Shown piece after piece: positions 1-11,712 of a stretch of DNA of 28,006 bases. Position 1 is the stretch's first letter, and the number at the start of each line of letters is the position of its first letter. A model generated the notes under the pieces. It was given only the letters and a program-made list of their open reading frames with translations, was not told the DNA's origin and ran no database searches. Position numbers and translations under genes: made by a program. This DNA comes from a virus: UHGV virus genome UHGV-0119633; one strand, 5' to 3'.

Positions 1-143
1 GATAATGTTACAGTTTTATAACCTTTGCTGTCAGTTCCTTGTTTTAGAATTCTTCTAGTATCGATATTCCTAACCTTGCCAGTATTACTAACTTCATATT
101 GCGAACCAAAATCATGCACCGCCTCCCATTCTTCAACTTTCAT
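1..143 (-). CDS. HNH/NUMOD4-type homing endonuclease, N-terminal fragment (runs off window start)
   Basis: ATG at 141-143 on minus strand; translation MKVEEWEAVHDFGSQYEVSNTGKVRNIDTRRILKQGTDSKGYKTVTL matches the W..I.G...YEVSN.G.VR N-terminal signature of phage HNH endonucleases; truncated by window edge. Confidence 0.55.
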   Translation of the reverse strand, partial: MKVEEWEAVHDFGSQYEVSNTGKVRNIDTRRILKQGTDSKGYKTVTL

Positions 144-182
144 ATAGCCGTTCTCTTCTAACCATTGACAATAATCATAAAA

Positions 183-266
183 TCATCCTTCTTTCTTATA
201 CTCTTTCCATTGCTCCAATGGACTCTTTTCTTCGAAATCATCAAACTCGTCGTACTCGTCATACAT
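183..266 (-). CDS. small acidic ORF (27 aa, MYDEYDEFDDFEEKSPLEQWKEYKKEG)
   Basis: ATG 264-266 preceded by AAAGGAGAA RBS at 7 nt; very short, not in ORF track. Confidence 0.2.
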   Translation of the reverse strand: MYDEYDEFDDFEEKSPLEQWKEYKKEG

Positions 267-345
267 AAACGCATTCTCCTTTCTAAATTTGTTTTAATAT
301 AAGTTCGAAAACAAAAGAAGAGGTTGAAAATATCAATCTCATCTT

Positions 346-379
346 TCTTTCTATAATAGGGCGTGTAATTTTCGCGAGC
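346..379 (-). promoter_or_regulatory. conserved intergenic motif, copy C (candidate phage promoter)
   Basis: Minus-strand CTCGCGAAAATTACACGCCCTATTATAGAAAG; lies between terminator and next RBS. Confidence 0.35.
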
Positions 380-405
380 CGACTTATCTTATATCAAGAT
401 TCGTA

Positions 406-444
406 GACAAAAAGAAGAGGCCGGGAATCAATCCCGAAACCTCC
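406..444 (-). terminator. rho-independent terminator
   Basis: Minus RNA: GAGG..CGGGA-UUGAU-UCCCG..CCUC hairpin followed by UUCUUUUUGU; just after stop of 453-836. Confidence 0.5.
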
Positions 445-452
445 TCATTCTG

Positions 453-836
453 TTAAACTTCTTCGTTTACTCCGATAGATACTACTCCTCCGATCAACTG
501 ATCTGGCTTCCAATCGTAAGCATCACATAATTCTTTTCCAAAGTTACCGAGTTCTGATAATGGAACTCCGTCTGTCCAAATATCAAACCATTTATCTGGA
601 TTGTGACTCGATACTTCTGTTACCCCTTTCTGTAATAAAGTTTCTGGTACTTCCAGTTTCTTTAGTTTTGGATCAGGAATACTCGGAAGTTTATCCCAGT
701 CAAAATCCTCAAATTTAGGTTTCTTTTTGGTTACAACGAATATAACTCCACCAGCTATCACTAGCCCGGTTCCAATAAGAATTTCCTTCTTGTGTTCCTT
801 TACAAATATTTTTGCTTTCTCAAGTTTTTCTTTCAT
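453..836 (-). CDS. membrane-anchored protein (N-terminal TM helix), paralog family KEK..KAK..KEHK
   Basis: ORF track 127 aa; RBS AAAGGAGAA 7 nt upstream of ATG; hydrophobic segment ILIGTGLVIAGGVIFVV; N-terminus similar to ORF 15181-15537. Confidence 0.6.
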   Translation of the reverse strand: MKEKLEKAKIFVKEHKKEILIGTGLVIAGGVIFVVTKKKPKFEDFDWDKLPSIPDPKLKKLEVPETLLQKGVTEVSSHNPDKWFDIWTDGVPLSELGNFGKELCDAYDWKPDQLIGGVVSIGVNEEV

Positions 837-873
837 AGTTTTGTTCTCCTTTCGACTTAAACAATTTTGTTTA

Positions 874-903
874 TTTGCATAATAGGAGTTGTTTATTTAG
901 CGT
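874..903 (-). promoter_or_regulatory. conserved intergenic motif, copy A (variant CGCT)
   Basis: Minus-strand ACGCTAAATAAACAACTCCTATTATGCAAA; immediately after terminator 904-938 and before RBS of 453-836. Confidence 0.3.
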
Positions 904-938
904 AAAAAAAAGGAAAGCCCAAGTCGTTTTGACCTGGG
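904..938 (-). terminator. rho-independent terminator
   Basis: Minus RNA: CCCAGGUC-AAAAC-GACUUGGG (8 bp, one G-U) then CUUUCCUUUUUUUU; after stop of 960-1457. Confidence 0.65.
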
Positions 939-959
939 TCTTTGCCTTTAGATAATAGT

Positions 960-1457
960 TTAAATGATATCTTTATGTTCACCTTTAAACCATAAAGAAC
1001 CATCCTCGAAACCTTCAATCAGTACACAAGTTCCGACAATATCGGTTTCGTGCTTATTATGTTCCACAACCAAACGATTACCTACTGTTTTCCATGACGA
1101 TAAAGCTCGTTCGTATTTTACTTTTGTATTATACGCAGACACATATCTCTTTTCGTAACCGTCCAATCTCTGTTTTAATTTCTTTACCTCATCACCATCC
1201 GGTTTCTCTTTTTCAGTTTGCTCTTTCAATCTGTCAAGAGTTTCCGTGATATTGTAAGGTAATTCCTTCAATCTGTTCTTGGAAGTACTCAAGTTTTTTG
1301 CTGCTTGCTTATGTAAATAATTCTCAAGCTTATCGATCTTGTCGATAATGTTCTTTGCGGTATCAATCACGATCCAATTAGAACCAAGTTTTGTACCTAA
1401 ATAAATAATTTCGTTTTCTTCCTGTTTCTTTAAAAAGTTGATAAATGTTGTTTTCAT
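960..1457 (-). CDS. hypothetical protein (165 aa)
   Basis: ORF track; RBS AAAGGGG upstream; followed by strong terminator. Confidence 0.6.
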   Translation of the reverse strand: MKTTFINFLKKQEENEIIYLGTKLGSNWIVIDTAKNIIDKIDKLENYLHKQAAKNLSTSKNRLKELPYNITETLDRLKEQTEKEKPDGDEVKKLKQRLDGYEKRYVSAYNTKVKYERALSSWKTVGNRLVVEHNKHETDIVGTCVLIEGFEDGSLWFKGEHKDII

Positions 1458-1486
1458 AAATATACCCCTTTCTTTAAATAAACTAT

Positions 1487-1518
1487 TTTTCTATAAAGGG
1501 AGATGTTTATTTAGCGAG
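1487..1518 (-). promoter_or_regulatory. conserved intergenic motif, copy B
   Basis: Minus-strand CTCGCTAAATAAACATCTCCCTTTATAGAAAA; ~30 nt upstream of start of 960-1457. Confidence 0.3.
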
Positions 1519-1944
1519 TTAATCCATGTTCACTAATTCGTGAATTGAACATTTCAATGCTCTCGCCATTTTTATCAGATTACGAGAATTCGGAGTGGCT
1601 AGACCGTTTGTGTATTTACTTATCGTAACCTGAGTGACACCTATCTTTTCAGCTAATCGATCTTGTGTCATAGCTACGTTTCTCATTTTCCGATTTAGAT
1701 TACGAGCAAATATCTTTCTCCATTCTTCTTCTGAAATGTCAATTGAATCTTCGTTGCCTGGATCATGAATCAGATAGGCTTGTCTATTAAGAAAATCATA
1801 AGCATACTTTTTACCGCCTTTGATCTTTACCGTGATCTCTAATTGTGCACTAGGATACCAATCTAACATTTCTTCCGCTAGATTAGGATAATCCTGACAA
1901 AATGCTTCATATACGGGTTTCCAATATTTTTTACCGTCATTCAT
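1519..1944 (-). CDS. XRE-family helix-turn-helix DNA-binding protein
   Basis: C-terminal RNVAMTQDRLAEKIGVTQVTISKYTNG...LIKMARALKCSIHEL is a classic Cro/C1-type HTH; start moved to internal ATG (1942-1944, MNDGKK) which has GGAGGGA RBS at 6 nt; track ORF extends to 1959. Confidence 0.7.
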   Translation of the reverse strand: MNDGKKYWKPVYEAFCQDYPNLAEEMLDWYPSAQLEITVKIKGGKKYAYDFLNRQAYLIHDPGNEDSIDISEEEWRKIFARNLNRKMRNVAMTQDRLAEKIGVTQVTISKYTNGLATPNSRNLIKMARALKCSIHELVNMD

Positions 1945-2060
1945 CTTAAGTCCCTCCATTTCTTAAAGATTGAATTATGTGCAGACCGAAATTCATTTTT
2001 ACCGTTTTTAGGGCCAAAATGACCGAAAATAGCCAATTTAGCCCCATTTTTGACGAAAAG

Positions 2061-2112
2061 TGCCGAATTATTAGCAGACCAAAAATAATTATTAGCAGAC
2101 CAAAATTCGGCA
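2061..2112. repeat. operator-like element: tandem 21-bp direct repeats flanked by 9-bp inverted repeat
   Basis: AATTATTAGCAGACCAAAA at 2066-2084 and 2087-2105 (period 21) bracketed by TGCCGAATT / AATTCGGCA; related GCAGACCGAAA and TGACCGAAAA copies at 1982-2035. Confidence 0.5.
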
Positions 2113-2116
2113 TATC

Positions 2117-2401
2117 TTACACATAATCGTCCTCATCTATGTCGTCTTCATACTCAAATTCATCATTATAATCGTCACTACCAGATCCATATAACTCTTT
2201 TAAAGCTTCTTGACGTTTGTTAATACTATCGATAGATGCTTTATATGTACTGATTCTGATAAACTCCGACATAGACATTCCGCTAAGTCTAGCTGCCCTC
2301 TCTATAGACGAATACTCCTCGTCATTGCATTTAGAGAAAATAGGTTTTCTTCTCGCTCCAAACTTCAACGGCCTCCCACGTTTCTTTTTAACTTCTTCCA
2401 T
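2117..2401 (-). CDS. small basic/AT-hook (KKRGRP) protein with RHH-like core and acidic tail
   Basis: ORF track 94 aa; RBS GAGGAGGA; motif GMSMSEFIRIS resembles ribbon-helix-helix family; paralogous to 3643-3813 and 6290-6493. Confidence 0.55.
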   Translation of the reverse strand: MEEVKKKRGRPLKFGARRKPIFSKCNDEEYSSIERAARLSGMSMSEFIRISTYKASIDSINKRQEALKELYGSGSDDYNDEFEYEDDIDEDDYV

Positions 2402-2407
2402 AAAATA

Positions 2408-2569
2408 TCAATCCTCCTCGCGAGCACTAGACGAACCATAACGATCTAATTCAATATCTACACCCTGCAAATTATCATAATTATGTATGGTAAGATCTGT
2501 CGATACCGTACCACCAAGCAATAAATCACCGATATCCTCAATACTAAGTTTTACAATAATTCTACTCAT
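2408..2569 (-). CDS. hypothetical small protein (53 aa, MSRIIVKLSIEDIGDLLGG...)
   Basis: Hand-translated; ATG 2567-2569 preceded by AAGGAGGA; stop TGA lies inside RBS of next gene. Confidence 0.4.
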   Translation of the reverse strand: MSRIIVKLSIEDIGDLLLGGTVSTDLTIHNYDNLQGVDIELDRYGSSSAREED

Positions 2570-2584
2570 AAATATCAATCCTCC

Positions 2585-2959
2585 TTACCACTCATCAAAC
2601 TCATGATAATCTTCGTCCTTGCAGCCACCCTTAGCCCACAACAACACCTGTATCAGACGGTCAATATCATACTCTTCAAATATCAAGAATTGTTTGTAAC
2701 CAAGGTAGTCATTAGTATCGCCATCATAAATCTCAAATGTCGCCTTAACAGATTCCTCATCGAACACGCTATCCAGATTCCACGGTTCCAACGGCATAAC
2801 CCCATTAAAAACCCAATCGAAAATATAAAACATAGGATTTAATTCTCTACCATGATCGACCTTAATCGCTAATCTCTCTTCCAAAACACACGGAGTATAC
2901 GGAGCAAATATAGTACCAGCTGGCATACGATTAAATGTTTTAAAATCTACTATCTTCAT
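2585..2959 (-). CDS. hypothetical protein (124 aa)
   Basis: ORF track; RBS AAGGAGGAA upstream. Confidence 0.6.
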   Translation of the reverse strand: MKIVDFKTFNRMPAGTIFAPYTPCVLEERLAIKVDHGRELNPMFYIFDWVFNGVMPLEPWNLDSVFDEESVKATFEIYDGDTNDYLGYKQFLIFEEYDIDRLIQVLLWAKGGCKDEDYHEFDEW

Positions 2960-2962
2960 AAT

Positions 2963-3346
2963 TTATTCCTCCTTATCTTTTTCACACCACATTCCAACAA
3001 GATCACTATACACTTCTAGCATTTTTACATCTGGTTTATCGTGGGTTTTATTATATTCATCAAAATATTCATTGAATGCACAAATACACTTCCAAATATA
3101 CATTTGTTTAGAATCATTTGTTTCATCCATTTCAGGTCTTTTTGCTTCCTCCTTGACATTCACTTTAGCCCAAGCGAAATAATGCTCCATATGCTCTCCA
3201 GGACCAAAGCCAACACAACGCGTGCTAACTGATAACGTAACATCATCGGGTTTTACTTTGTAACCGTTTCGACAACAATAGTCTGCTATAATCTCACAGA
3301 CATCATCTTCTGATAAATTAATAGTAATGTTCTTATTAATATTCAT
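2963..3346 (-). CDS. hypothetical protein (127 aa)
   Basis: ORF track; RBS AAGGAGGA overlapping stop of upstream gene. Confidence 0.6.
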   Translation of the reverse strand: MNINKNITINLSEDDVCEIIADYCCRNGYKVKPDDVTLSVSTRCVGFGPGEHMEHYFAWAKVNVKEEAKRPEMDETNDSKQMYIWKCICAFNEYFDEYNKTHDKPDVKMLEVYSDLVGMWCEKDKEE

Positions 3347-3360
3347 AACTCTAATCCTCC

Positions 3361-3621
3361 TTATCTCACATCAACGTTGCATCCAAAATTAATCAGATAA
3401 TCGGTAGTACAACCCAACACATGAGACATTCTAGCGATAACATCTATTCTAGGGGTACGTTTACATCTCATATAATTAGACATAGCCGACTCAGATATAC
3501 CGATTAATTTAGCCAATTCTTTTTGATTAATGCCGCATAAGTCCATACGGTAATTAAGCTTTTCAACGAAGCGTTTTCGCCATTCAATTTCACTAATAGA
3601 TTTTATAGGAGTCATTTCCAT
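3361..3621 (-). CDS. XRE-family helix-turn-helix DNA-binding protein
   Basis: INQKELAKLIGISESAMSNYMRCKRTPRIDVIARMSHVLGCTTDYL = Cro/C1-type HTH; RBS AAGGAGGA. Confidence 0.7.
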   Translation of the reverse strand: MEMTPIKSISEIEWRKRFVEKLNYRMDLCGINQKELAKLIGISESAMSNYMRCKRTPRIDVIARMSHVLGCTTDYLINFGCNVDVR

Positions 3622-3642
3622 AAAAATATCAATCCTCCTTAC

Positions 3643-3813
3643 TTACTTCTCTTCTTGGTACATTCTCTCTAAAGCAGTTCTAAATACATCAGCAGCACTC
3701 ATACCTGTTGACTTACGAACCTTCTCTAAAATATCTAATTCTTTCCTATTAACACGAACTAGATATCTTGTATCTCTAGGATCTGCTATCGGTTTTCTAC
3801 CTCTCTTCGCCAT
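3643..3813 (-). CDS. small basic/AT-hook RHH-like protein (56 aa, MAKRGRKPIADPRDTRYLVRVNRKELDILEKVRKSTGMSAADVFRTALERMYQEEK)
   Basis: Hand-translated; below ORF-track size cutoff; RBS AAGGGAGG 8 nt upstream; clear paralog of 6290-6493 (RGRP..DPR..Y..R.N..E...LE...K.TGM..ADVFR.ALE..Y). Confidence 0.55.
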   Translation of the reverse strand: MAKRGRKPIADPRDTRYLVRVNRKELDILEKVRKSTGMSAADVFRTALERMYQEEK

Positions 3814-3910
3814 ACATATCGCCTCCCTTCTATGACAGATACCATTAATACGAAAAACAAAAGAAGAGCCTCAACTAAATATCAATCTAGTCAAAGCTCT
3901 CCCACATCAA

Positions 3911-3982
3911 TTAATCTTTAAGATAACCAACTTTATATAAGAATCTTCCTACAACTGCCCAAAACTTCTGTCTGAGTGTCAT
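3911..3982 (-). CDS. possible 23-aa peptide (MTLRQKFWAVVGRFLYKVGYLKD)
   Basis: Strong RBS AAAGGAGGGA 6 nt upstream of ATG, ~30 nt downstream of promoter-like motif D; very short. Confidence 0.2.
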   Translation of the reverse strand: MTLRQKFWAVVGRFLYKVGYLKD

Positions 3983-4007
3983 ATAGATCCCTCCTTTCTA
4001 TTTGGTT

Positions 4008-4040
4008 TCTTTTCATAATAGGCGTTGTTAATATCACGAA
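4008..4040 (-). promoter_or_regulatory. conserved intergenic motif, copy D
   Basis: Minus-strand TTCGTGATATTAACAACGCCTATTATGAAAAG. Confidence 0.3.
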
Positions 4041-4063
4041 AGAAAAAGAGAGAAGAAGTATAT

Positions 4064-4205
4064 CTCAGCTACACGTTTCTCTGCATCCATTTAAAGACAC
4101 ATTCACTGGTCAGTTCCAGTCCCACTAATATACTTTGATGCTACACGTTTCTCCATACATAAGTATGTTCACTGGTCAGTTCCAGTCCCACATCAACTTT
4201 TATTC
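4064..4205. repeat. tandem ~70-bp direct repeat (2 copies) with internal hairpin
   Basis: Both copies share CTACACGTTTCTC and TTCACTGGTCAGTTCCAGTCCCAC (ACTGG/CCAGT stem); located between promoter-like motifs E and D. Confidence 0.55.
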
Positions 4206-4238
4206 TTCTCTCATAATATAAAATGTATTTTTCGCGAA
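4206..4238 (-). promoter_or_regulatory. conserved intergenic motif, copy E
   Basis: Minus-strand TTCGCGAAAAATACATTTTATATTATGAGAGA; directly after terminator 4237-4264. Confidence 0.35.
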
Positions 4239-4264
4239 TAAAAAGAAGAGGCTGTAAAAGCCCC
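4237..4264 (-). terminator. rho-independent terminator (short stem)
   Basis: GGGGC-UUUUACA-GCCUC then UUCUUUUUAUU on minus RNA; after stop of 4274-4657. Confidence 0.4.
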
Positions 4265-4273
4265 TTACTTGTT

Positions 4274-4657
4274 TTACTTAATTTTAATTGAGTCGTATTC
4301 CTCCTTAAATTTATTAAGCTTTTCCGTAAGTTCTTTTAACTCCTCTTCATATCTTTGTTTTACTATTAATGACACTTCGGAATTGTGTTTGTCACATCCT
4401 TCGATTTTAGAGACTCGATAAGCTATCTTTCTGTTCAGTGTTCCTATAGCTTCTTCAAGAGCACCTTCTTTTACCACATCTCTCACGAACTCTATAGTTT
4501 CAGTGTTATTCTTTATCTGTATATGATTCTTACATATAAAGAACGTTACCAATCCTATAGAAACACATGAGACACCGGCAATTATTTTGCCATTGTTGTC
4601 CATAACCACTTCTTTGAAAGACCTCTTTCCTTTCTCTTTAACATCGTGCTTCTTCAT
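4274..4657 (-). CDS. membrane-anchored coiled-coil protein (127 aa)
   Basis: ORF track; RBS AAGGAGG; hydrophobic segment IIAGVSCVSIGLVTFFI; followed by terminator. Confidence 0.6.
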   Translation of the reverse strand: MKKHDVKEKGKRSFKEVVMDNNGKIIAGVSCVSIGLVTFFICKNHIQIKNNTETIEFVRDVVKEGALEEAIGTLNRKIAYRVSKIEGCDKHNSEVSLIVKQRYEEELKELTEKLNKFKEEYDSIKIK

Positions 4658-4684
4658 ATCAAATACCTCCTTTAGAAATTAATA

Positions 4685-4717
4685 GTTTTTCATAAAGGGG
4701 TATGTAATTTACGCGAT
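4685..4717 (-). promoter_or_regulatory. conserved intergenic motif, copy F
   Basis: Minus-strand ATCGCGTAAATTACATACCCCTTTATGAAAAA; ~35 nt upstream of start of 4274-4657. Confidence 0.35.
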
Positions 4718-4734
4718 CACAAAAACCTCAAATA

Positions 4735-4995
4735 TCAATCCTCACTCTCTTTTTCTTCAAACATATCTGGTCTAGCGTATAAAGCTGCTTCAACCTCTTC
4801 TTCAGTCATTAGTGGTTTAATAGAACATCTGTCAAAATCCTGGTCATTAAATCTTACAACCATACCTTTTATCCCTTCATTCTGAGCGTGGATTGCTACA
4901 AGATCCATACAGGTTCTGAAAGTCCTCTTATCCACCGACAATCCAGCTTTTACTTCTACGTTAACTTCTCCGATAATATTCTTTTTACTTTCCAT
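4735..4995 (-). CDS. hypothetical protein (86 aa)
   Basis: ORF track; RBS AAGGAGGATTGAATT-ATG. Confidence 0.6.
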   Translation of the reverse strand: MESKKNIIGEVNVEVKAGLSVDKRTFRTCMDLVAIHAQNEGIKGMVVRFNDQDFDRCSIKPLMTEEEVEAALYARPDMFEEKESED

Positions 4996-4998
4996 AAT

Positions 4999-5289
4999 TC
5001 AATCCTCCTTCGTTTTATCTGCCATATCTCGAATAAGCACAATCTCATTGATATCATCCTCAATACGACGATAAATGCTATCAAATTTTTCCTGATAACG
5101 ATACATGTCTTGCAAATAGAAACTATGTATACGACTGTCTCGCTTACCGAAATTGACGATAACAGTTATGTATAAACCATCAAATTGGATATTAATTGGT
5201 ATATCATTCGCGCACCCAAGATCTCGTAACATCATTAATGCGGTAGTTACGTTAGTTATCATGTTGGTTTCATCGTTATAAAACTTCAT
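4999..5289 (-). CDS. hypothetical protein (96 aa)
   Basis: ORF track; stereotyped junction GGAGGATTGATATTTT-ATG. Confidence 0.6.
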   Translation of the reverse strand: MKFYNDETNMITNVTTALMMLRDLGCANDIPINIQFDGLYITVIVNFGKRDSRIHSFYLQDMYRYQEKFDSIYRRIEDDINEIVLIRDMADKTKED

Positions 5290-5295
5290 AAAATA

Positions 5296-5538
5296 TCAAT
5301 CCTCCAATGGCTTACCAGAACAATCCACCTCGATCATCTCTGGATTAGTATGTAACGTTTTCCCAAACTCCATTAATTCGGTAAGTAATTTGTTAAACTT
5401 AATAATAAATTCTTTAAGTGCCTCCTCACGAGTTTCGCCATACCCTTCGATAGTATAAATAGTATAGTCATCAAAATCTGCGCTTACGGTATGAGACTGC
5501 CACCTACCTTTTCCATCGTCATTATGTGTTAACTTCAT
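5296..5538 (-). CDS. hypothetical protein (80 aa)
   Basis: Start set to ATG 5536-5538 (MKLTHND) which carries GGAGGATTGAGTTT spacing; track ORF extends to 5556. Confidence 0.55.
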   Translation of the reverse strand: MKLTHNDDGKGRWQSHTVSADFDDYTIYTIEGYGETREEALKEFIIKFNKLLTELMEFGKTLHTNPEMIEVDCSGKPLED

Positions 5539-5552
5539 AAACTCAATCCTCC

Positions 5553-5834
5553 TCACAACATTTCATCAGCTAATTCCAAACAAATCTCTCTGGCCTGATC
5601 CCAAATATCAATCTCAAATGACACTCTCTTATATTCTTCCGAAAGAGATGTGTATCGGTCACTAAGCTCCATGTATTCACGGTAGCTTAATGATTCTTCA
5701 CCATCTTTTAGTTTTCTATCAATCTCAATCATCTCTCTCGATACAGCACATTTCTTTTTAATACACTCTACGTACTTATCGCTCATGGCCTGCCTTACTG
5801 CGGTGTTGTATTTGGTGATACTTTCTTTACTCAT
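5553..5834 (-). CDS. hypothetical protein (93 aa)
   Basis: ORF track; junction GGAGGATTGATATTTT-ATG. Confidence 0.6.
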   Translation of the reverse strand: MSKESITKYNTAVRQAMSDKYVECIKKKCAVSREMIEIDRKLKDGEESLSYREYMELSDRYTSLSEEYKRVSFEIDIWDQAREICLELADEML

Positions 5835-5840
5835 AAAATA

Positions 5841-6098
5841 TCAATCCTCCTTCTTGATGACGTCTATGCTAGCCTGAGCTAAAACAAAACCATCCATGTA
5901 ATCAGTATCGATATCAACTGTAATTTGTTGTTTCAACTGATCGGTAAATAACCCTGCGATATCTTCTGAAATACTGTCGGCCGGTGTGTCTGATCTGTAA
6001 ATTTTATTAACACGATACTTTATAATATCTTTTGTTGGTTCTTTAAGTCTTTTTAACTCTCTTTTTAACTTTTTATTCTTGATTTTAAGATTACTCAT
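5841..6098 (-). CDS. hypothetical protein (85 aa)
   Basis: ORF track; RBS GGAGGAATGATGTTTTT-ATG. Confidence 0.6.
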   Translation of the reverse strand: MSNLKIKNKKLKRELKRLKEPTKDIIKYRVNKIYRSDTPADSISEDIAGLFTDQLKQQITVDIDTDYMDGFVLAQASIDVIKKED

Positions 6099-6105
6099 AA
6101 AAACA

Positions 6106-6306
6106 TCATTCCTCCTTACTTCTTCTAACTTCCATTTCTAACCCAGATTGTATCCAACATCTTCTACATTTACTCTCATCATAGCCAGTAACACCACAGT
6201 TACAGCGCTCAGATGATTGTAAATCATAATCGTATGGACAATTAAACTCGACTAATAAATCGAGCATCGTTTCTTTCTGATTTTCATTATCAAATATCAT
6301 TTTCAT
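6106..6306 (-). CDS. small Cys-rich protein (66 aa)
   Basis: ORF track; RBS GAGGTG; CPYDYD...CNCG...CRRC cysteine pattern. Confidence 0.5.
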   Translation of the reverse strand: MKMIFDNENQKETMLDLLVEFNCPYDYDLQSSERCNCGVTGYDESKCRRCWIQSGLEMEVRRSKEE

Positions 6307-6493
6307 CGTTTAACACACCTCGCTCCGATTCCTTCTCATATAACTTCTCCAAAGCCACTCTAAAAACATCGGCCTGTCCCATACCAGTCATCTTGCAGCA
6401 ATCCTCTAGCATTTTATTTTCTTTATCATTTATACGTATCATGTAATGTTTCTTCCTCGGGTCTTTACTATAAGGTCTCCCTCGTCTGCCCAT
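6290..6493 (-). CDS. small basic/AT-hook RHH-like protein (paralog of 3643-3813)
   Basis: ORF track 67 aa; RBS GGAGGTGA 6 nt upstream; MGRRGRPYSKDPRKKHYMIRIN...TGMGQADVFRVALEKLY. Confidence 0.55.
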   Translation of the reverse strand: MGRRGRPYSKDPRKKHYMIRINDKENKMLEDCCKMTGMGQADVFRVALEKLYEKESERGVLNDENDI

Positions 6494-6532
6494 CGGTAAT
6501 CACCTCCAATCAAATATGCTTAACTTTAAATG

Positions 6533-6564
6533 CAAAAAGAGAAGACCCACATCCGAGCCTTCTC
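6533..6564 (-). terminator. possible terminator (long loop)
   Basis: GAGAAG/CUUCUC stem with 14-nt loop, then UUUUUG; after stop of 6573-6782. Confidence 0.3.
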
Positions 6565-6572
6565 CCATCAAT

Positions 6573-6782
6573 TTAACTATTATGTATTTTACCAGCGATA
6601 GCGTGTAGCAGATCCCTCTCATACTGTGTACGAAGCAGCACGATTTTCTCGATAGCTAAATCACGAACTGCCTTTCTAGTACCAGGACTTTCAACCAAAG
6701 ATTCGATAAATAAATCGTCTAAAATCTCTTCAAGGCCTTTCTTGAAATTCTCATTTCTTTCGGTAACACTGTAATCACTCAT
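6573..6782 (-). CDS. hypothetical protein (69 aa)
   Basis: ORF track; no good SD at normal spacing, so lower confidence. Confidence 0.45.
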   Translation of the reverse strand: MSDYSVTERNENFKKGLEEILDDLFIESLVESPGTRKAVRDLAIEKIVLLRTQYERDLLHAIAGKIHNS

Positions 6783-6837
6783 TTTATTATACTAACCTCT
6801 TTTCTTGTAACCTACATACGGCTTAATATATGATGCA

Positions 6838-7173
6838 TCAAATATCGCCTTCTTTTCTATGCTGACTCTTCTCACTGTCAAACCCATCAGGATACCTCTC
6901 CATAAGTTTGCATAAGTTAGTCTCCATAATAGTCTGAAGATCATAACCGATAGCTTTAGCACTGATTGCCAAATACCAAGCAACATCTCCAAGCTCTTTT
7001 GCGATATGCTTTCTATCGAGTTCATGACCCTGAAACAAATGCTTCTTGAGAATATCGATACACTCTCCGGCCTCTCCATTAAGACCCATAAGACCATTTT
7101 GAAGCTGCTCCATGTCTGTTAACTCCTGGTTTGCTGATCTCCATGCTCCATCCTGATATGCGTTAATTTCCAT
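6838..7173 (-). CDS. mazG: MazG-like nucleoside triphosphate pyrophosphohydrolase
   Basis: NGEAGECIDILKKHLF...ELGDVAWYLAISAKAIGYDLQTIMETNLCKLMERYP matches the dimeric MazG-like fold signature; RBS AAAGGAGAAAG; overlapping 6792-7097 frame rejected. Confidence 0.75.
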   Translation of the reverse strand: MEINAYQDGAWRSANQELTDMEQLQNGLMGLNGEAGECIDILKKHLFQGHELDRKHIAKELGDVAWYLAISAKAIGYDLQTIMETNLCKLMERYPDGFDSEKSQHRKEGDI

Positions 7174-7218
7174 TTCTTTCTTTCTCCTTTTCTTATGCTA
7201 TAATTATTTCGGATAAAT

Positions 7219-7260
7219 AGACAAAACCCCTAGAAACGCCGTATAAAGCGTCACAGGGGC
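7219..7260 (-). terminator. rho-independent terminator after nrdG
   Basis: GCCCCU...AGGGG stem with inner GACGC/GCGU pairing, followed by UUUUGU on minus RNA. Confidence 0.5.
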
Positions 7261-7272
7261 ATTCTTAGAGGG

Positions 7273-7764
7273 TTAATCGCACCACAACACAATCTGTCCA
7301 AGTTCTCTAGTTCTCTTTACATCTATAACTCTTTGATTTGAGCTTCCTCTCCATTTCAACTGTACATCTCTGAGTTTCTCGACATACGGTCCGTCTACCA
7401 AAACATCAATGTACTCCATAACCGGTAGATCTTTAACCGCTTCATATGTATATCCGGTGTAAAGCCAGATCGTTTTGTTTGGGAAAGATGCTTTTACTAT
7501 TTCGCATAGTGTCAAAATATCCCATCGGTTTCCTTCAAACAACGGATCTCCACCCGATAAAGTCAAACCGGAAATATAATCTTCATCGAGTAGATCTTCG
7601 AGTTCCTCCCAAGCATTTCCATCAAACAACAATCCATCATCAGGGTTCCAAGTAACAGGATTCTGACATCCAGGGCATTCATGATCGCAGCCGGCAACCC
7701 ATAGGACTACACGAAGACCGTCTCCGTTTTTCATATCGTCTTTCGTAATATCATGGTATCTCAT
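7273..7764 (-). CDS. nrdG: anaerobic ribonucleotide reductase activating protein (radical SAM)
   Basis: GCDHECPGC (CxxxCxxC) radical-SAM cluster plus SLSGGDP, IWLYTGY, VLVDGPYV, WRGSSNQ motifs typical of NrdG; RBS GGAGGTGA. Confidence 0.9.
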   Translation of the reverse strand: MRYHDITKDDMKNGDGLRVVLWVAGCDHECPGCQNPVTWNPDDGLLFDGNAWEELEDLLDEDYISGLTLSGGDPLFEGNRWDILTLCEIVKASFPNKTIWLYTGYTYEAVKDLPVMEYIDVLVDGPYVEKLRDVQLKWRGSSNQRVIDVKRTRELGQIVLWCD

Positions 7765-7799
7765 TTACTATCACCTCCATCATTCAGTTTCACATTTGT

Positions 7800-8039
7800 T
7801 TATATATTCCATTCGTCAAGATCATCCTCGTTATTATCAATAGCTTTCTTTGCCTCAGCAGTTGATGCCTTGATATGACGATAAATAACTTTGCTAATAA
7901 CCGCAACGACTAAAACTGGCCATATAGCTATGAGAATCAATGATTTAGGCTCTTCTGGATCTTTCTTAGCGACCTCATCAATAAGAGAACCCATACAAAA
8001 ATATAACAATGCAGCACAAAACCATTCAAAACCTGTCAT
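7800..8039 (-). CDS. small 2-TM membrane protein (79 aa)
   Basis: ORF track; RBS AAAGGAGA; two hydrophobic segments. Confidence 0.55.
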   Translation of the reverse strand: MTGFEWFCAALLYFCMGSLIDEVAKKDPEEPKSLILIAIWPVLVVAVISKVIYRHIKASTAEAKKAIDNNEDDLDEWNI

Positions 8040-8052
8040 AATATCTCCTTTC

Positions 8053-8376
8053 TTAATCTACACATTTAACTTCGATGCCTGTCTCTTCTTCAAGTTCGCG
8101 GAAATAATCTTCCATTGTTTTACTTCCGTCTTCGATAGCGCCCATAAGCTCGTCAACGTACTCTAATGTCTTAGCGATACGCTTACTTCCGAATTTATGA
8201 ATCCTATGTTCAGCCAGTGCGAAACAAGACATCAGGGCCTCCGTACTAAATGTGGAAGCCCTATCTGAAATATCTTTCTTGATCTTAGCAAGTTCATACT
8301 TGTCGATCACGACCTGATTTTTCTTGTTCTCAATCCTTTCTAATCGTTCGCGCATTCTCCTTTCAGCACGTCCCAT
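8053..8376 (-). CDS. hypothetical protein (107 aa)
   Basis: ORF track; RBS AAAGGAGGA. Confidence 0.6.
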   Translation of the reverse strand: MGRAERRMRERLERIENKKNQVVIDKYELAKIKKDISDRASTFSTEALMSCFALAEHRIHKFGSKRIAKTLEYVDELMGAIEDGSKTMEDYFRELEEETGIEVKCVD

Positions 8377-8380
8377 ACTT

Positions 8381-8650
8381 TTAATCCTCCTTTAAAAACG
8401 TATCTTCAAACTCCAAATCAGGCATAAAATTAGCGCATATACTATCGTAGCGATAATCATAAAACTCGATCTCACTAACGAATATGAATATGCGCCCATC
8501 TTTTAAATAAATTATTCGTTCGGATACGTGTAACTCAGCAATGTCTTGTGCAATGTCACTCTTAGTCATAAACCGTTCAAATATATTTTGTGCCATCCGG
8601 TTGGTTCTTGATATTATTATGTATAAATTAGTATTTGGTTTTTCTGACAT
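8381..8650 (-). CDS. hypothetical protein (89 aa)
   Basis: ORF track; weak RBS AAAGGA. Confidence 0.5.
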   Translation of the reverse strand: MSEKPNTNLYIIISRTNRMAQNIFERFMTKSDIAQDIAELHVSERIIYLKDGRIFIFVSEIEFYDYRYDSICANFMPDLEFEDTFLKED

Positions 8651-8813
8651 TATTTGATCCTTTCAATGCGTAGGGAGTACGATCAAACCATTTTCTAGCT
8701 TTCGAATAGTTTTCCTTTTCTCGCCCTAAACTTTCACATCTAGAATATTCAGCGTGTTTATTGAAACCTATCACTTTCTTAGAATGGCTTTTGTCCACAT
8801 CCACATATCTCAT
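8628..8813 (-). CDS. small basic protein (61 aa)
   Basis: ORF track; RBS AAGGAGAAAAAG; ATG overlaps upstream stop (ATGA). Confidence 0.5.
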   Translation of the reverse strand: MRYVDVDKSHSKKVIGFNKHAEYSRCESLGREKENYSKARKWFDRTPYALKGSNNVRKTKY

Positions 8814-8968
8814 TTCTTTTTCTCCTTGTAATATACAGGTTTATGAGAGTTAAGATTTGTCGGTTCATCGAGACAATCAAAACACGGATCTTCCCATTCT
8901 TCTTTATCCTCATGTCGGCACGATTTACAATACTCAAAATAAACCTCTTTTTCATCATTTGGCCGCAT
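8810..8968 (-). CDS. small Cys-rich zinc-ribbon-like protein (52 aa, MRPNDEKEVYFEYCKSCRHEDKEEWEDPCFDCLDEP...)
   Basis: Hand-translated; RBS GAAAGGAGGAAACCGAG-ATG; CxxC...CxxC. Confidence 0.45.
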   Translation of the reverse strand: MRPNDEKEVYFEYCKSCRHEDKEEWEDPCFDCLDEPTNLNSHKPVYYKEKKK

Positions 8969-9000
8969 CTCGGTTTCCTCCTTTCTAAAAAAGAGAAGCC

Positions 9001-9162
9001 CTAATTGGACTCCTTTTGAGTTACTTCATTCTTTTCGGTGCTATTCTTTTCTTCGTTTTTGTTACGTTTCCCGCTCGCCATATTCAACGCAAATATAACA
9101 GTGGAAACAATACCTGCAATGTAGCTCAGTACGATAATCGCTAAAATCTCTGTGAATGCCAT
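9001..9162 (-). CDS. small membrane peptide (53 aa, MAFTEILAIIVLSYIAGIVSTVIFALNMASGKRNKNEEK...)
   Basis: Hand-translated; RBS GGAGGATTAAATT-ATG; one TM segment plus charged tail. Confidence 0.45.
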   Translation of the reverse strand: MAFTEILAIIVLSYIAGIVSTVIFALNMASGKRNKNEEKNSTEKNEVTQKESN

Positions 9163-9165
9163 AAT

Positions 9166-9846
9166 TTAATCCTCCTTTTTAGATCCGGTGATAAGTTCTG
9201 AATATGGAAGAGTTTCGATCCATCTACAGAATTCTCTCCACTCATCGAGCTTGTGGTTTTTTCTCTGGTGATACATGGCTGCCAGGACTTCATAATTGAG
9301 CATAACAGTACGTTTCTGGTTATAGCTGCTCGGAAGAAGCTGAATCATCTGCCACCAACAGCCTTTGTCTTTAGATTTTAAATAAGATTCACGGCACCAG
9401 TTTAACTGCTCTATTGTGGTATTAAGAACGGATAATGATGCTTTGCATAAATGTTCACAACTAAAATCCTCCAGCGTAAATTCCTTCGCATGAATCTTGT
9501 GCATAGTTGAGCAAGAGTTAGCAACAGTACCGATTTTATAAGTATCGAACTCCTTCCACCAATACAAAGGCGCTGTAATATCCACATACACAGTAATCAT
9601 CCGCATAAATTTACGATGCTCTGTACCAGCGTTCCGAAGTCTTTTCATAAGGTCGAGGTCGTTTGGCCCGATTATAAAACGGCATGTATTACCGCACCAA
9701 TCCGGTTTGAAACCACACGATTTACAAAGACCAGTATCGCATCCGTTACTACTATCACTCTTCTCCCAACTATTCATCGGATTCCGCATACCTCTAATGG
9801 CAGCTTCCCATCCCATAACTTCTACATTCTCAATTTTAATACTCAT
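9166..9846 (-). CDS. ThyX-like (flavin-dependent thymidylate synthase fold) protein, divergent, with Cys-rich insert
   Basis: By-eye alignment to ThyX: VEVMGWEAAIRGMR / TEHRKFMRMITVYVDITAPLYWW / TVMLNYEVLAAMYHQR resemble ThyX core blocks, but canonical RHR motif appears replaced (DTYK) and a CDTGLCKSCG...CGNTC insert is present; RBS AGGAGGA. Confidence 0.4.
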   Translation of the reverse strand: MSIKIENVEVMGWEAAIRGMRNPMNSWEKSDSSNGCDTGLCKSCGFKPDWCGNTCRFIIGPNDLDLMKRLRNAGTEHRKFMRMITVYVDITAPLYWWKEFDTYKIGTVANSCSTMHKIHAKEFTLEDFSCEHLCKASLSVLNTTIEQLNWCRESYLKSKDKGCWWQMIQLLPSSYNQKRTVMLNYEVLAAMYHQRKNHKLDEWREFCRWIETLPYSELITGSKKED

Positions 9847-9858
9847 AATTTAATCCTC

Positions 9859-10602: not shown

Positions 10603-10607
10603 ATTAT

Positions 10608-11338: not shown

Positions 11339-11407
11339 GTAATTCCTCCTTTCTTTAGTTTACTTATACAAAAAGAAAAAGAGCCCCACAATTGAGACTT
11401 TAATTCT

Positions 11408-11533: not shown

Positions 11534-11553
11534 ACTTTTATCCTCCTTAATAT

Positions 11554-11586: not shown

Positions 11587-11712
11587 ACGGTCTTCTATAG
11601 AAACGTTCTTTCACTTTTTCTTCATGATCTTCATTTGCAAATTTGCTATATCGTATCGATTTGTTTTTAGATATATCTTCTCTCATGAAACGCTTATCTT
11701 TATATTCTTTTG

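What the first reader, a model, noticed from the sequence alone, without database searches (positions are those of the whole stretch)
2404..5852. Stereotyped gene junction AAGGAGGATTGATATTT(T)ATG with upstream stop inside the SD
At least six gene boundaries (2404, 2571, 3624, 5290, 5838, and a variant at 4981) use the same ~20-nt junction. The upstream stop TGA is the TGA of GGAGGATTGA, so upstream proteins end in KED, EED or KEE as a by-product. The 11-mer ATTGATATTTT also occurs in two UTRs (348, 3880) and encodes the MIDIL N-terminus of two paralogs (25699, 26822). This points to serial duplication of gene starts or a conserved translation-initiation cassette, with tight translational coupling.
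Basis: seen in the sequence. Interest (0 to 1): 0.45.

Follow-up and report, generated by a model that had tools for sequence, protein, structure and literature searches.

The report
Gene junction hides a strand-polar DNA motif
The repeated 20-base gene junction is real, but its conserved spacer is one copy of a short DNA motif that a widespread family of human-gut phages keeps on one DNA strand whatever the gene direction, and related phages have swapped genes exactly at these junctions.

Summary
The junction AAGGAGGATTGATATTT(T)ATG is real. It lies on the minus strand, with five near-exact copies and four variants. It is a compact start site for small, unrelated accessory genes inside operons. 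It is not a duplicated gene start: the flanking proteins are not paralogs. The TGA in it is the upstream stop at only 3 of the 5 core copies.

The spacer ATTGATATTT is the long form of a motif (KATATTY; GATATTT 49:0 between strands in the window). This motif is enriched in all reading frames, in 5'UTRs and in terminator loops. Reverse-oriented integrase and repressor genes carry it on their antisense strand (family-wide 177 vs 22; GATATTT 29 vs 0). It therefore follows the DNA strand, not the transcript.

In the ~97-kb temperate phage, density rises toward the right genome end and is at background in the head module, about 40% above chance in the tail module. The cultured Faecalibacterium phage FP_oengus shows the same pattern. 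The closest precedent is the one-orientation, right-end-clustered Chi sites of lambdoid phages LLS and MD8. A Chi-like role is my leading inference at about 35-40%, and it is untested.

The exact 14-mer GGAGGATTGATATT occurs only in local accessory-gene arrays. Four of four homology breakpoints with a related phage fall inside junctions, so the junctions mark cassette-exchange joints, as PeSLs do in T4-type phages.

The parts
2399..2419 (-). Junction GAGGAGGATTGATATTTTATG. Its TGA is the stop of the 53-aa gene 2569..2408 (protein ends REED). The ATG at 2401 starts a 94-aa gene.
2567..2586 (-). Junction AAGGAGGATTGATATTTATG. The upstream stop is the TAA just before the SD, so the junction TGA is not used. 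Homology with phage L025 breaks here.
3619..3640 (-). Junction AAGGAGGATTGATATTTTTATG. The upstream stop is a TAA before the SD. It starts an 86-aa HTH regulator. Homology with L025 breaks inside it.
5287..5307 (-). Junction TTGGAGGATTGATATTTTATG. Its TGA is the upstream stop (protein ends LED).
5832..5852 (-). Junction AAGGAGGATTGATATTTTATG. Its TGA is the upstream stop (protein ends KKED).
4993..5010 (-). Variant junction AAGGAGGATTGAATTATG. Its TGA is the upstream stop (protein ends KED).
5536..5556 (-). Variant junction GAGGAGGATTGAGTTTATG.
6096..6117 (-). Variant junction AAGGAGGAATGATGTTTTTATG. The N-terminus of its gene is found downstream of a different gene in L025.
14899..14917 (-). 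Variant AAGGAGGGTTGATATTATG at the first gene after a 279-nt gap. No upstream ORF uses the TGA.
4730..4746 (-). Orphan junction AGTGAGGATTGATATTT. Its TGA stops gene 4995..4735. It is followed not by a start codon but by a promoter-like 24-mer and a new transcription unit, so it looks like a scar of cassette insertion or loss.
320..340 (-). Terminator-like hairpin carrying GATTGATATTTT in its stem and loop. The scan calls this hairpin only on the + strand; the gene-strand reading (stem with two mismatches, followed by a T-run) is mine from the sequence.
3862..3903 (-). Terminator-like hairpin with GATTGATATTT at its apex. A different hairpin in L025 carries the same motif at its tip.
19006..19016 (-). 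ATTGATATTTA immediately 5' of the SD of gene 18987. This is the second arrangement: box, then SD, then ATG.
14548..14558 (-). ATTGATATTTG inside the 3' end of an ORF, about 30 nt upstream of the next start at 14518.
25686..25699 (-). ATGATTGATATTTT encoding the N-terminus MIDIL.
26809..26822 (-). ATGATTGATATTTT encoding the N-terminus MIDIL.
1..28006 (-). Window-wide strand-polar motif. Counts are gene strand vs other strand: KATATTY 90:16, GATATTT 49:0, TTGATATT 23:1, ATTGATATTT 17:0. ATTGATATTT is the second most frequent 10-mer after the SD GAAAGGAGAA.

Best explanation
The junction is a composite of three parts.

(1) A strong Shine-Dalgarno sequence, AAGGAGG, lies in the last codons of the upstream ORF.

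(2) An 11-nt box, (G)ATTGATATTT, follows. Its TGA often, but not always, terminates the upstream ORF.

(3) The ATG comes 10-12 nt after the start of the box.

It serves as a compact, unstructured start site for small unrelated accessory genes inside operons. It is placed for termination-reinitiation coupling; that step is inferred.

The box is not a translation-specific element. It is the long form of a DNA-strand-specific motif, KATATTY. This ~97-kb temperate human-gut phage and its relatives (distant relatives of Oengus phages) keep the motif on one DNA strand of the right-hand ~60 kb of the genome. It occurs in every reading frame, in 5'UTRs and in terminator loops. Critically, it also lies on the antisense strand of the reverse-oriented integrase and repressor genes. 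All of this is shown. The SD-to-ATG spacer is therefore one of the slots where the phage places a genome-polar DNA signal.

Because SD, box and ATG together give the same 17-21-mer at many boundaries within an accessory-gene array, these junctions coincide with the points where related phages have exchanged gene cassettes. The coincidence is shown; that the junction actually promotes the exchange is inferred.

What the polar motif does is inferred. The most likely role, at about 35-40%, is a Chi-like signal: an orientation-dependent sequence read by a helicase-nuclease or translocase entering from the right genome end, which attenuates degradation and stimulates recombination. The model is the abundant one-orientation, right-end-clustered Chi sites of lambdoid phages LLS and MD8.
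For: Junction and coupling geometry:
- The junction regions are not more structured than shuffled sequence, with z from -0.6 to +0.9.

Not duplication:
- All-against-all BLASTP finds no similarity between junction-flanked genes.
- PHROG families of these genes are unrelated.
- The sequence logo shows no conservation beyond -8..+10.

The motif is general:
- In the window, GATATTT is 49:0 between strands and ATTGATATTT 17:0.
- Inside ORFs, GATATTT is seen 32 times against 5.3 expected from codon-order shuffles and 9.5 from synonymous resampling.
- It is the top 7-mer of all, z = 11.6, and is enriched in all three frames.
- In 80 loci (1.71 Mb) chosen only by primase-polymerase homology, GATATTT is 1273:222 and ATTGATATT 188:11.
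- In ORF interiors of 18 diverse relatives it is about 3-fold enriched in every frame and at every gene length, with z about 16.
- ORF-internal copies are not next to SD-like sequences: 9.6% against 9.2% for random positions.

Polarity follows the DNA strand:
- The lysogeny module, L166 ~3340-6300 (serine integrase 4039-5625 and HTH repressor 5702-6298, both Pfam-supported, plus small minus-strand ORFs I read from the sequence at ~3340-3890), carries 9 copies on the genome + strand and none on its own sense strand.
- Family-wide, 69 deduplicated reverse ORFs carry 177 copies on the genome + strand and 22 on the other. The shuffle expectation is 74.5 +/- 7.8 against 175 observed.
- In 41 reverse ORFs of at least 300 aa, GATATTT is 29 antisense (14.1 expected) and 0 sense (8.0 expected).
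- GC skew flips in the bin covering that module, while the motif does not.

Gradient along the genome:
- Over 81.9 kb of merged genome, GATATTT is 73:3 and TTGATATT 32:3. Median relative positions are 0.63-0.71, with KS p of 1e-6 to 1e-7 against a uniform spread.
- Successive ~10-kb segments going leftward through the left arm give 14:5, 8:5 and 7:6.
- These segments encode tail, tape-measure, and terminase, portal and protease genes.

Cultured relative: FP_oengus has KATATTY 76 times against 19.7 expected, 68:8 between strands. TTGATATT is 12:0. Copies are confined to the integrase-to-RNAP region.

Precedent: LLS has 23 Chi sites, 20 in one orientation, concentrated near the right end. [quoted passage not shown]

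Recombination joints:
- Four of four homology breakpoints between the window and L025 fall inside junctions.
- There is an orphan junction.
- The exact 14-mer occurs only in local arrays.
Against: - All Chi sequences I know of are G+C-rich 5-8-mers. This motif contains only one G and is degenerate, or longer (10-11 nt) in its strong form. This rests on my own knowledge.
- No host chromosome could be examined, so over-representation and replichore skew of the motif in the host are untested.
- The motif is shared by phages of 28-50% G+C. It is also shared by a Faecalibacterium phage and by contigs binned with Lachnospiraceae. That is broad for a species-specific Chi and could instead point to a phage-encoded reader.
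- A clade with equally diverged primase uses a different box, GATCAAAAT.
- The left boundary of the motif-rich domain also coincides with the start of the late structural genes. An explanation based on transcription class is therefore not excluded.
- Copies show position-specific peaks flanking the SD, at -25 and at -8. The UGAU of the box can add about -2 kcal/mol of pairing to the 16S 3' tail. An additional translational role for the junction copies therefore remains possible.
- Breakpoints at gene boundaries are also what selection for viable recombinants alone would leave.
- The physical genome ends are inferred only from two assemblies that end at the same place.
- Gene calls are my own, based on SD sequences.
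Confidence: 0.55

Rival explanations
1. Purely translational cassette. The whole 20-mer would be an optimised ribosome-binding region that is selected convergently. It would act as a split, extended SD (GGAGG, a 2-nt bulge, then UGAU pairing with 16S AUCA) followed by an A/U-rich spacer. The ORF-internal copies would be unrelated noise.
For: - RNAduplex gives -14.4 kcal/mol for the junction against -12.2 for the GGAGGATTAAATT type. UGAU is paired to AUCA.
- The sister clade uses GGAGGTGATCAAAATG, a perfect extended anti-SD complement.
- The motif peaks at -8 and -25 relative to start codons.
- The start regions are unstructured.
Against: - The same motif is about 3-6-fold enriched inside ORFs in all frames and is not next to SD-like sequences.
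- It sits on the antisense strand of reverse-oriented genes, where it can have no role in translation.
- The TATATTT variant has no UGAU.
- Only 31 stretches across 596 Gb of bacterial genomes hold the exact 19-mer, and only two of them are motif-rich.
- The 16S tail used in the pairing calculation was a generic sequence, not the host's.
Confidence: 0.12
2. RNA-level operator or cleavage site. A phage RNA-binding repressor or endoribonuclease would recognise GAUUGAUAUUU in early mRNAs, as T4 RegA and RegB act on early start regions. Loop-displayed copies in small terminated transcripts would act as decoys.
For: - The motif lies in start regions, 5'UTRs and terminator hairpins.
- Two classes of ribosome-binding site in the window resemble the stage-specific SD variants of T4 (the T4 comparison is my own knowledge).
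Against: An RNA element must lie on the transcript's sense strand. In 41 reverse-oriented ORFs of at least 300 aa, GATATTT is 0 sense (8 expected) and 29 antisense (14 expected). Family-wide the count is 177 against 22.
Confidence: 0.05
3. Signal read by an RNA polymerase on the non-template strand. Examples would be a -10-like promoter element (compare SPO1 late GATATT and T4 late TATAAATA) or a sequence-specific pause or termination signal (compare the T7 class II signal ATCTGTT). The polymerase would traverse the whole right arm rightward, including antisense through the lysogeny genes.
For: - The motif-rich domain ends where the late structural genes begin, just after a YonO-like RNA polymerase gene.
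- TATAAT is depleted on the same strand.
- TATATTT often follows terminators directly.
- The motif is shared by phages whose G+C ranges from 28 to 50% and that are assigned to different bacterial families, which fits a phage-encoded reader.
Against: - There is no -35 partner and no fixed upstream element.
- The phage already has its own 24-28-nt promoter class after terminators, and the box lies downstream of those.
- A promoter between the SD and the ATG would yield transcripts without an SD.
- A density of 2-3 per kb inside ORFs is very high for promoters or terminators.
Confidence: 0.12
4. Priming sites for the family's giant primase-polymerase on the lagging-strand template, analogous to the T7 sites 5'-(G/T)2GTC-3'.
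For: - The motif has single-strand polarity that is independent of gene direction.
- Density is about one per 0.4-1 kb.
- The motif-carrying data set was defined by homology to this primase-polymerase.
- Flanking sequence contributes to T7 primase site choice (PMC12839067).
Against: - The motif is at background, with no strand bias, in the left ~25 kb of the genome, which must also be replicated.
- A clade with the same primase divergence as FP_oengus lacks the motif, while FP_oengus has it.
- Known primase sites are 3-5 nt long (own knowledge).
Confidence: 0.1
5. Serial duplication of gene starts, meaning paralogous genes that keep a common 5' region.
For: - Five near-identical 17-21-mers lie within 3.5 kb.
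- Two genes share the start ATGATTGATATTTTAATAGC.
Against: - There is no protein similarity among junction-flanked genes.
- Conservation stops at the edges of the motif.
- The same junction precedes unrelated genes in other phages.
Confidence: 0.03

Closest known systems
Abundant one-orientation Chi sites in lambdoid phages LLS and MD8 (PMC12315714)
   Same: Both are short asymmetric motifs among the most frequent oligomers of the genome. Nearly all copies lie on one strand of a genome drawn with terminase at the left, and copies are concentrated toward the right end. LLS has 20 of 23 sites in one orientation and MD8 has 32:0. Here TTGATATT is 32:3 and GATATTT 73:3, with a rightward gradient.
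   Different: The LLS and MD8 motifs are the known G+C-rich 8-mer Chi of the host's RecBCD, and their function was tested. Here the motif is A+T-rich, degenerate and 2-5 times denser. Its reader is unknown, the host genome was not examined, and the motif spans phages assigned to different bacterial families.
PeSL cassettes (promoter-early stem-loops) of T4-type phages (PMC2839356, PMC4122927)
   Same: Both are short, repeated regulatory sequences that flank small non-essential ORFan genes in hyperplastic regions. Both coincide with insertion, deletion and replacement boundaries between close relatives.
   Different: A PeSL is a sigma-70 promoter plus a terminator stem-loop. This junction is an SD-spacer-ATG unit with neither. 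The window separately has repeated terminator-plus-promoter units. Mini-circle formation was not tested.
Translationally coupled gene junctions, where the SD lies in the upstream ORF and the stop overlaps or abuts the start
   Same: The SD lies inside the last three codons of the upstream gene and the stop is 6 nt before the ATG.
   Different: Ordinary coupled junctions conserve only the SD and the stop-start geometry, not an exact 10-11-nt spacer. Here the spacer is kept even where its TGA is not the stop (2569, 3621, 14901).
Faecalibacterium phage FP_oengus (Oengusvirus, NC_047916; PMC5883640)
   Same: - Its primase-polymerase is 53% identical and its YonO-like RNA polymerase candidate 43% identical.
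- It has the same gene order.
- It has the same KATATTY polarity (68:8) and the same restriction to the non-structural region.
- It has junctions of the type GGAGAATGATATTTATG.
   Different: Its genome is 58 kb against about 97 kb here. It has a tyrosine rather than a serine integrase. It has few long-form junction arrays. The describing paper does not contain the word 'motif'.
T7 primase recognition sites 5'-(G/T)2GTC-3' (PMC12839067)
   Same: Both are short, strand-specific DNA sequences read on one template strand.
   Different: The T7 sites are needed genome-wide. Here the motif is absent from the structural arm.

Membership tests
Translational-coupling junction | The SD of the downstream gene lies within the end of the upstream ORF | tested here: met
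   AAG GAG GAT TGA encodes K-E-D-stop at 5834, 4995 and 2401, and a similar ending at 5289.
Translational-coupling junction | The upstream stop overlaps or lies within a few nt of the downstream start | tested here: met
   Gaps are 3-21 nt at all operon-internal junctions. The stop is the junction TGA at 3 of the 5 core copies and a TAA before the SD at the other 2.
Translational-coupling junction | Downstream translation depends on upstream translation | not testable with these tools
   This needs reporter fusions or ribosome profiling. No masking hairpin is predicted, so independent initiation is also possible.
Chi-like polar recombination/nuclease-attenuation site | A short asymmetric motif, strongly over-represented | tested here: met
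   - GATATTT is seen 49 times against about 5.5 expected from base composition.
- Inside ORFs it is 32 against 5.3 expected.
- It is the top 7-mer.
Chi-like polar recombination/nuclease-attenuation site | One orientation relative to the genome, independent of gene direction | tested here: met
   Reverse-oriented genes carry it antisense: 177 vs 22 overall, and GATATTT 29 vs 0.
Chi-like polar recombination/nuclease-attenuation site | Clustering toward the genome end that a nuclease would enter, with the motif's 3' side facing that end | tested here: inconclusive
   There is a rightward gradient on the top strand with terminase at the left. The physical ends are inferred only from two assemblies that stop at the same place.
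Chi-like polar recombination/nuclease-attenuation site | Recognised by the host RecBCD/AddAB, and over-represented and skewed in the host chromosome | not testable with these tools
   No host chromosome was available. The bacterial loci retrieved are prophage-like.
Chi-like polar recombination/nuclease-attenuation site | Stimulates recombination nearby | tested here: inconclusive
   Four of four breakpoints lie in junctions. Selection for intact genes would give a similar picture.
PeSL-type mobile regulatory cassette | The repeated unit contains a promoter and a terminator stem-loop | tested here: not met
   The junction has neither. Separate terminator-plus-promoter repeats do exist in the window.
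PeSL-type mobile regulatory cassette | Indel and replacement boundaries between relatives coincide with the repeats | tested here: met
   Window against L025: four breakpoints.
RNA-level operator (T4 RegA/RegB-like) | The motif lies on the sense strand of the regulated transcripts | tested here: not met
   In reverse-oriented genes it is depleted on the sense strand and enriched on the antisense strand.
Promoter -10 element of a phage sigma factor (SPO1 gp34 GATATT, T4 late TATAAATA) | Lies upstream of transcription units, oriented with the genes it drives | tested here: not met
   - It lies between the SD and the ATG, inside ORFs, and downstream of the phage's own promoter-like 24-mers.
- It does not flip with gene direction.
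Primase recognition site | Distributed over the whole lagging-strand template | tested here: not met
   It is at background, with no strand bias, in the left ~20-25 kb.
Paralogous gene family / duplicated gene starts | Flanking coding sequences are homologous | tested here: not met
   BLASTP all-against-all and the sequence logo.

The most novel reading that the evidence does not exclude
KATATTY/ATTGATATTT would be a previously undescribed genome-polar DNA signal of a very prevalent family of human-gut temperate phages (Oengus-like). One possibility is that it is the first Chi sequence identified for Clostridia, and the first A+T-rich one. The other is that it is read by a phage-encoded machine, such as the 1,400-aa primase-polymerase, the Cas4-like nuclease or the YonO-like RNA polymerase. 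Sister clades would have evolved their own box (GATCAAAAT). The phages would place the signal in SD-to-ATG spacers and terminator loops, and so create ready-made crossover points for gene-cassette exchange.
Probability: 0.3. Interest if true: 0.8.

Novelty: new variant of a known kind. Interest (0 to 1): 0.6.

Why it matters
A 'stereotyped ribosome-binding site' can be a DNA-level signal in disguise, so annotators and synthetic biologists should not read every conserved spacer as a translational element.

If the motif is Chi-like, it would identify the recombination-hotspot sequence for a major group of gut Firmicutes or their phages. It would also explain how these abundant phages survive host helicase-nucleases.

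It would give a mechanism for the rapid turnover of small accessory genes: identical 20-mers at gene boundaries act as crossover points.

The cultured phage FP_oengus in F. prausnitzii carries the same motif, so these ideas can be tested directly.

Tried and rejected
- Paralogy of the flanking genes: BLASTP all-against-all found none.
- A -35 or other partner element: a logo of 217 sites shows nothing outside -8..+10.
- Masking RNA structure at the junctions: none.
- Known RNA families: no Rfam hit at E <= 0.1.
- Sigma-70-type promoters: not enriched, 21 found against 30.6 expected.
- Literature search for the sequence string: only primers and unrelated hits.
- Close cultured relative by DNA: no megablast match.
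- RNA-level operator, cleavage site or translational enhancer as the general explanation: rejected by the antisense-strand test.
- ORF-internal copies as cryptic start sites: no excess of SD-like sequence next to them.
- Codon usage or dipeptide bias as the cause: the enrichment survives codon-order and synonymous shuffles in all frames.
- Primase sites: disfavoured by the absence from the structural arm.
- Split-SD pairing: only about -2 kcal/mol extra, and it cannot explain the TATATTT variant or the ORF copies.
- Host identification: only MAG assignments (Lachnospiraceae, Clostridia, one Mediterraneibacter) and the Faecalibacterium host of FP_oengus. No host chromosome could be read.
- PDB sequence search with the RNA polymerase candidate: no hit.

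Full report
**1. The observation**

All genes in the 28-kb window are on the minus strand.

- The 17-mer AAGGAGGATTGATATTT with up to 3 mismatches matches 11 times, against 0.40 expected. All matches are on the minus strand.
- Five near-exact junctions precede the starts at 2401, 2569, 3621, 5289 and 5834.
- Variants precede 4995, 5538, 6098 and 14901.
- An orphan copy at 4746-4730 ends a gene but is followed by no start codon.
- The TGA inside the junction is the upstream stop at 2401, 5289, 5834, 4995 and the orphan. At 2569 and 3621 the stop is a TAA in front of the SD, and at 14901 there is no upstream ORF.
- Across related contigs the TGA was the stop in 40 of 61 junction-type sites. The need for a stop codon therefore does not explain why the spacer is conserved.

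**2. It is not a duplicated gene start**

- Proteins on either side of the junctions are unrelated by all-against-all BLASTP. They fall in different PHROG families or in none.
- A logo of 217 non-identical sites shows information only from about -8 to +10 around TTGATATT. There is no upstream partner.
- Single-position scans show that all ten positions of ATTGATATTT are tightly constrained, with G preferred just upstream.
- The junction regions are no more structured than shuffled sequence.

**3. The spacer is part of a much more general motif**

In the window, counts on the gene strand vs the other strand are:

| Sequence | Gene strand | Other strand |
|---|---|---|
| TTGATATT | 23 | 1 |
| TGATATTT | 29 | 0 |
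| GATATTT | 49 | 0 |
| ATTGATATTT | 17 | 0 |

- ATTGATATTT is the second most frequent 10-mer after the SD GAAAGGAGAA.
- Copies occur in ORFs in all frames, immediately 5' of SD sequences, and in terminator-like hairpins around 336 and 3885. The tool calls the 3885 hairpin on the gene strand. It calls the 336 hairpin only on the opposite strand, so its gene-strand reading is mine from the sequence.
- In ORF interiors GATATTT occurs 32 times. Codon-order shuffles predict 5.3 and synonymous resampling 9.5.
- It is the most over-represented of all 7-mers, z = 11.6, and is enriched in each frame.

**4. Relatives**

- The exact 19-mer occurs in 36 stretches of IMG/VR contigs of 40-160 kb, mostly from one human-gut data set. 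In these, ATTGATATTT is 142:0 between strands. This set was chosen by the motif and is therefore biased.
- In bacterial genomes the 19-mer occurs in 31 stretches, mostly Lachnospiraceae or Clostridia MAGs. Only two are motif-rich.
- The window is a whole ENA contig, 100% identical over the aligned loci to part of 96.5-96.7-kb phage contigs.
- For an unbiased set, I fetched 80 loci (1.71 Mb) chosen only by homology to the 1,404-aa primase-polymerase. There GATATTT is 1273:222 and ATTGATATT 188:11, but GGAGGATTGA is only 8:0.
- In ORF interiors of 18 diverse members, TTATATT, GATATTT and TATATTT are the top 7-mers, z about 16. They are about 3-fold enriched in all frames and at all gene lengths, while TATAAT is depleted.
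- Relative to start codons, the box peaks at -10..-6 (in the spacer) and at -30..-21 (abutting the SD, often TATATTT(T)GAAAGGAG). The latter copies lie in 5'UTRs downstream of the phage's own promoter-like 24-mers, or directly after terminators.
- ORF-internal copies are not next to SD-like sequences.
- A sister clade lacks KATATTY. It has its own box, (T)GATCAAAAT(G), at 51:2 between strands and in the same contexts, for example GGAGGTGATCAAAATG.

**5. The decisive test: reverse-oriented genes**

I walked along the 96.7-kb genome. This showed a temperate phage with a lambda-like order:

- terminase, portal and protease;
- tape-measure and tail-fibre genes;
- a reverse-oriented lysogeny module, consisting of a 528-aa serine integrase and an HTH repressor;
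- early and replication genes;
- the window;
- HNH, a DUF2800 nuclease and a 1,056-aa RNA polymerase candidate at the right end.

In the lysogeny module, L166 ~3340-6300, the motif has 9 copies on the genome + strand, which is antisense to those genes. It has none on their sense strand. That span is the Pfam-supported integrase and repressor plus small minus-strand ORFs I read from the sequence at ~3340-3890.

- Family-wide, 69 deduplicated reverse ORFs of at least 150 aa carry 177 copies on the genome + strand and 22 on the other. Codon shuffles predict 74.5 +/- 7.8 where 175 were observed. The genes' own sense strand is depleted, 21 against 39 expected.
- In 41 reverse ORFs of at least 300 aa, GATATTT alone is 29 antisense (14.1 expected) and 0 sense (8.0 expected).
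- GC skew flips in the bin covering that module, but the motif does not.

The motif therefore follows the DNA strand, not the transcript. This rules out general explanations based on RNA, translation or sense-strand promoters.

**6. Distribution along the genome**

- Over 81.9 kb of merged sequence, GATATTT is 73:3 and TTGATATT 32:3.
- Copies are shifted rightward, with median relative positions of 0.63-0.71 and KS p of 1e-6 to 1e-7.
- Successive ~10-kb stretches of the left arm give, going leftward, 14:5, 8:5 and 7:6. The last is background with no strand bias.
- The cultured Faecalibacterium phage FP_oengus has a primase-polymerase 53% identical and the same gene order. It shows KATATTY 76 times against 19.7 expected, 68:8 between strands, and TTGATATT 12:0.
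- In FP_oengus the copies are confined to the integrase-to-RNAP region. It also has junctions such as GGAGAATGATATTTATG.
- The paper describing that phage does not contain the word 'motif'.

**7. What the junction is**

The junction is a strong SD, plus the long form of the polar box, plus the ATG. Together they give a compact operon-internal start site.

- The first genes after promoters in the junction array (window 1-4,700) use other sequences.
- The exact 14-mer GGAGGATTGATATT is restricted to the array at 2.4-5.9 kb of the window. Elsewhere it occurs only in similar arrays in relatives.
- Comparison with the related phage L025, whose flanks are 88-92% identical, shows four homology breakpoints. 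Each lies inside a junction or its GGAGGATTAGAG-type sibling. Unrelated genes are swapped between them, and one L025 gene start matches the window's gene 6098.
- The orphan junction abuts an inserted promoter-bearing unit.

The junctions thus mark cassette-exchange joints. Whether the shared 17-25 nt promote the crossovers, or selection merely preserves boundary crossovers, is not resolved.

**8. Likely mechanism of the polar motif (inference)**

The nearest documented phenomenon is the abundant Chi of lambdoid phages LLS and MD8. [quoted passage not shown] That orientation serves RecBCD entering from the right end (PMC12315714). The anatomy here matches.

Points against:
- the motif is A+T-rich and degenerate;
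- its density is very high;
- it is shared by phages of 28-50% G+C that are assigned to different bacterial families;
- no host chromosome has been examined.

I put a Chi-like role, with either a host or a phage reader, at about 35-40%. A signal for a rightward-moving RNA polymerase is at about 12% and primase sites at about 10%. An extra translational contribution at the junction copies is possible, since UGAU can add about -2 kcal/mol of pairing to the 16S tail.

**9. Caveats**

- Gene calls are my own, based on SD sequences.
- Many family loci are related to each other. I deduplicated them only crudely.
- One overlap check failed when merging sequence from two assemblies.
- The genome ends are inferred.
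- About 14 kb of the 97-kb genome was never retrieved, including roughly the leftmost 4.5 kb.

Noticed in passing
window minus strand at ~21916, 18300, 16170, 15590, 15146, 12360, 11570, 4715, 4236, 4040, 1516, 902, 376: A phage-specific promoter-like 24-28-mer, TTCGCG-N3-5-AAACA-N2-3-TCC(T)TTAT(A)G, follows most terminators. Sigma-70-type promoters are not enriched (21 found against 30.6 expected). These may be promoters for a phage-encoded or phage-modified polymerase.
   Followed up: partly
L071 12932-16102, 5.5 kb right of the window's low-coordinate end: A 1,056-aa protein has a GADFDGDTVM motif and a C-terminal sigma-region-4-like HTH. It is 43% identical to FP_oengus gp55, which is annotated 'RNA-dependent RNA polymerase'. 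It is a candidate YonO/QDE-1-like two-barrel RNA polymerase. On a circular map it would sit immediately upstream of the structural genes.
   Followed up: partly
window 21690-21895, minus strand: The 206-nt region between a promoter-like site and the Ro-like DUF2828 gene folds much better than shuffled sequence (-49.8 kcal/mol, z = -4.56). It carries three TAACAGCAA repeats. It could be a Y-RNA-like partner of the Ro-like protein. There is no Rfam match.
   Followed up: partly
window 4102-4125 and 4168-4191: Two exact 24-nt direct repeats, 66 nt apart, lie in an ORF-free stretch that begins at a promoter-like site. A second promoter-like site follows at about 4040. This is a possible small RNA or binding-site pair.
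   Followed up: no
window 1973-2105: A 19-nt repeat, AATTATTAGCAGACCAAAA, occurs in three copies. The copy number differs between this contig and the 96.7-kb assembly.
   Followed up: no
whole window: There are two classes of ribosome-binding site. (T)AGAAAGGAGAA-N4-6-ATG dominates at 18-27 kb, and AAGGAGGATT(G/A)A...ATG dominates at 2.4-9.9 kb. In both, the stop codon of the upstream gene is often built into the site.
   Followed up: partly
whole window and ORF interiors of family loci: The canonical -10 hexamer TATAAT is depleted on the gene strand. In the window it is 10 against 29 on the other strand. In family ORFs it is 0.5-0.9 times the shuffle expectation.
   Followed up: no
L146, L149, L150: A sister clade lacks KATATTY. 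It has its own strand-specific box, (T)GATCAAAAT(G), at 51:2. The box sits in SD-to-ATG spacers (GGAGGTGATCAAAATG, GGAGGATTGATCAAAATG), after terminators and inside ORFs.
   Followed up: partly
L071 16365-16407 and L331 (FP_oengus) 31668-31745: A conserved GC-rich hairpin, GGGGGAGGGGCTC...GCACCCCCTCC, lies at the extreme right end of both independent ~96.6-kb assemblies. In FP_oengus it is followed within 50 nt by two TTGATATTT copies. It may lie near the packaging site.
   Followed up: no
L166 4039-6298: The phage is temperate. It has a 528-aa large serine recombinase and a two-HTH repressor on the opposite strand, between the tail-fibre genes and the early genes.
   Followed up: yes
L068 1263-5356: A mosaic relative carries an NAD-salvage cluster (isochorismatase, phosphoribosyltransferase, NAMPT-like, NAD synthase). 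It also has an Rnl1-type RNA ligase and a kinase-like gene. It shows no motif enrichment.
   Followed up: no
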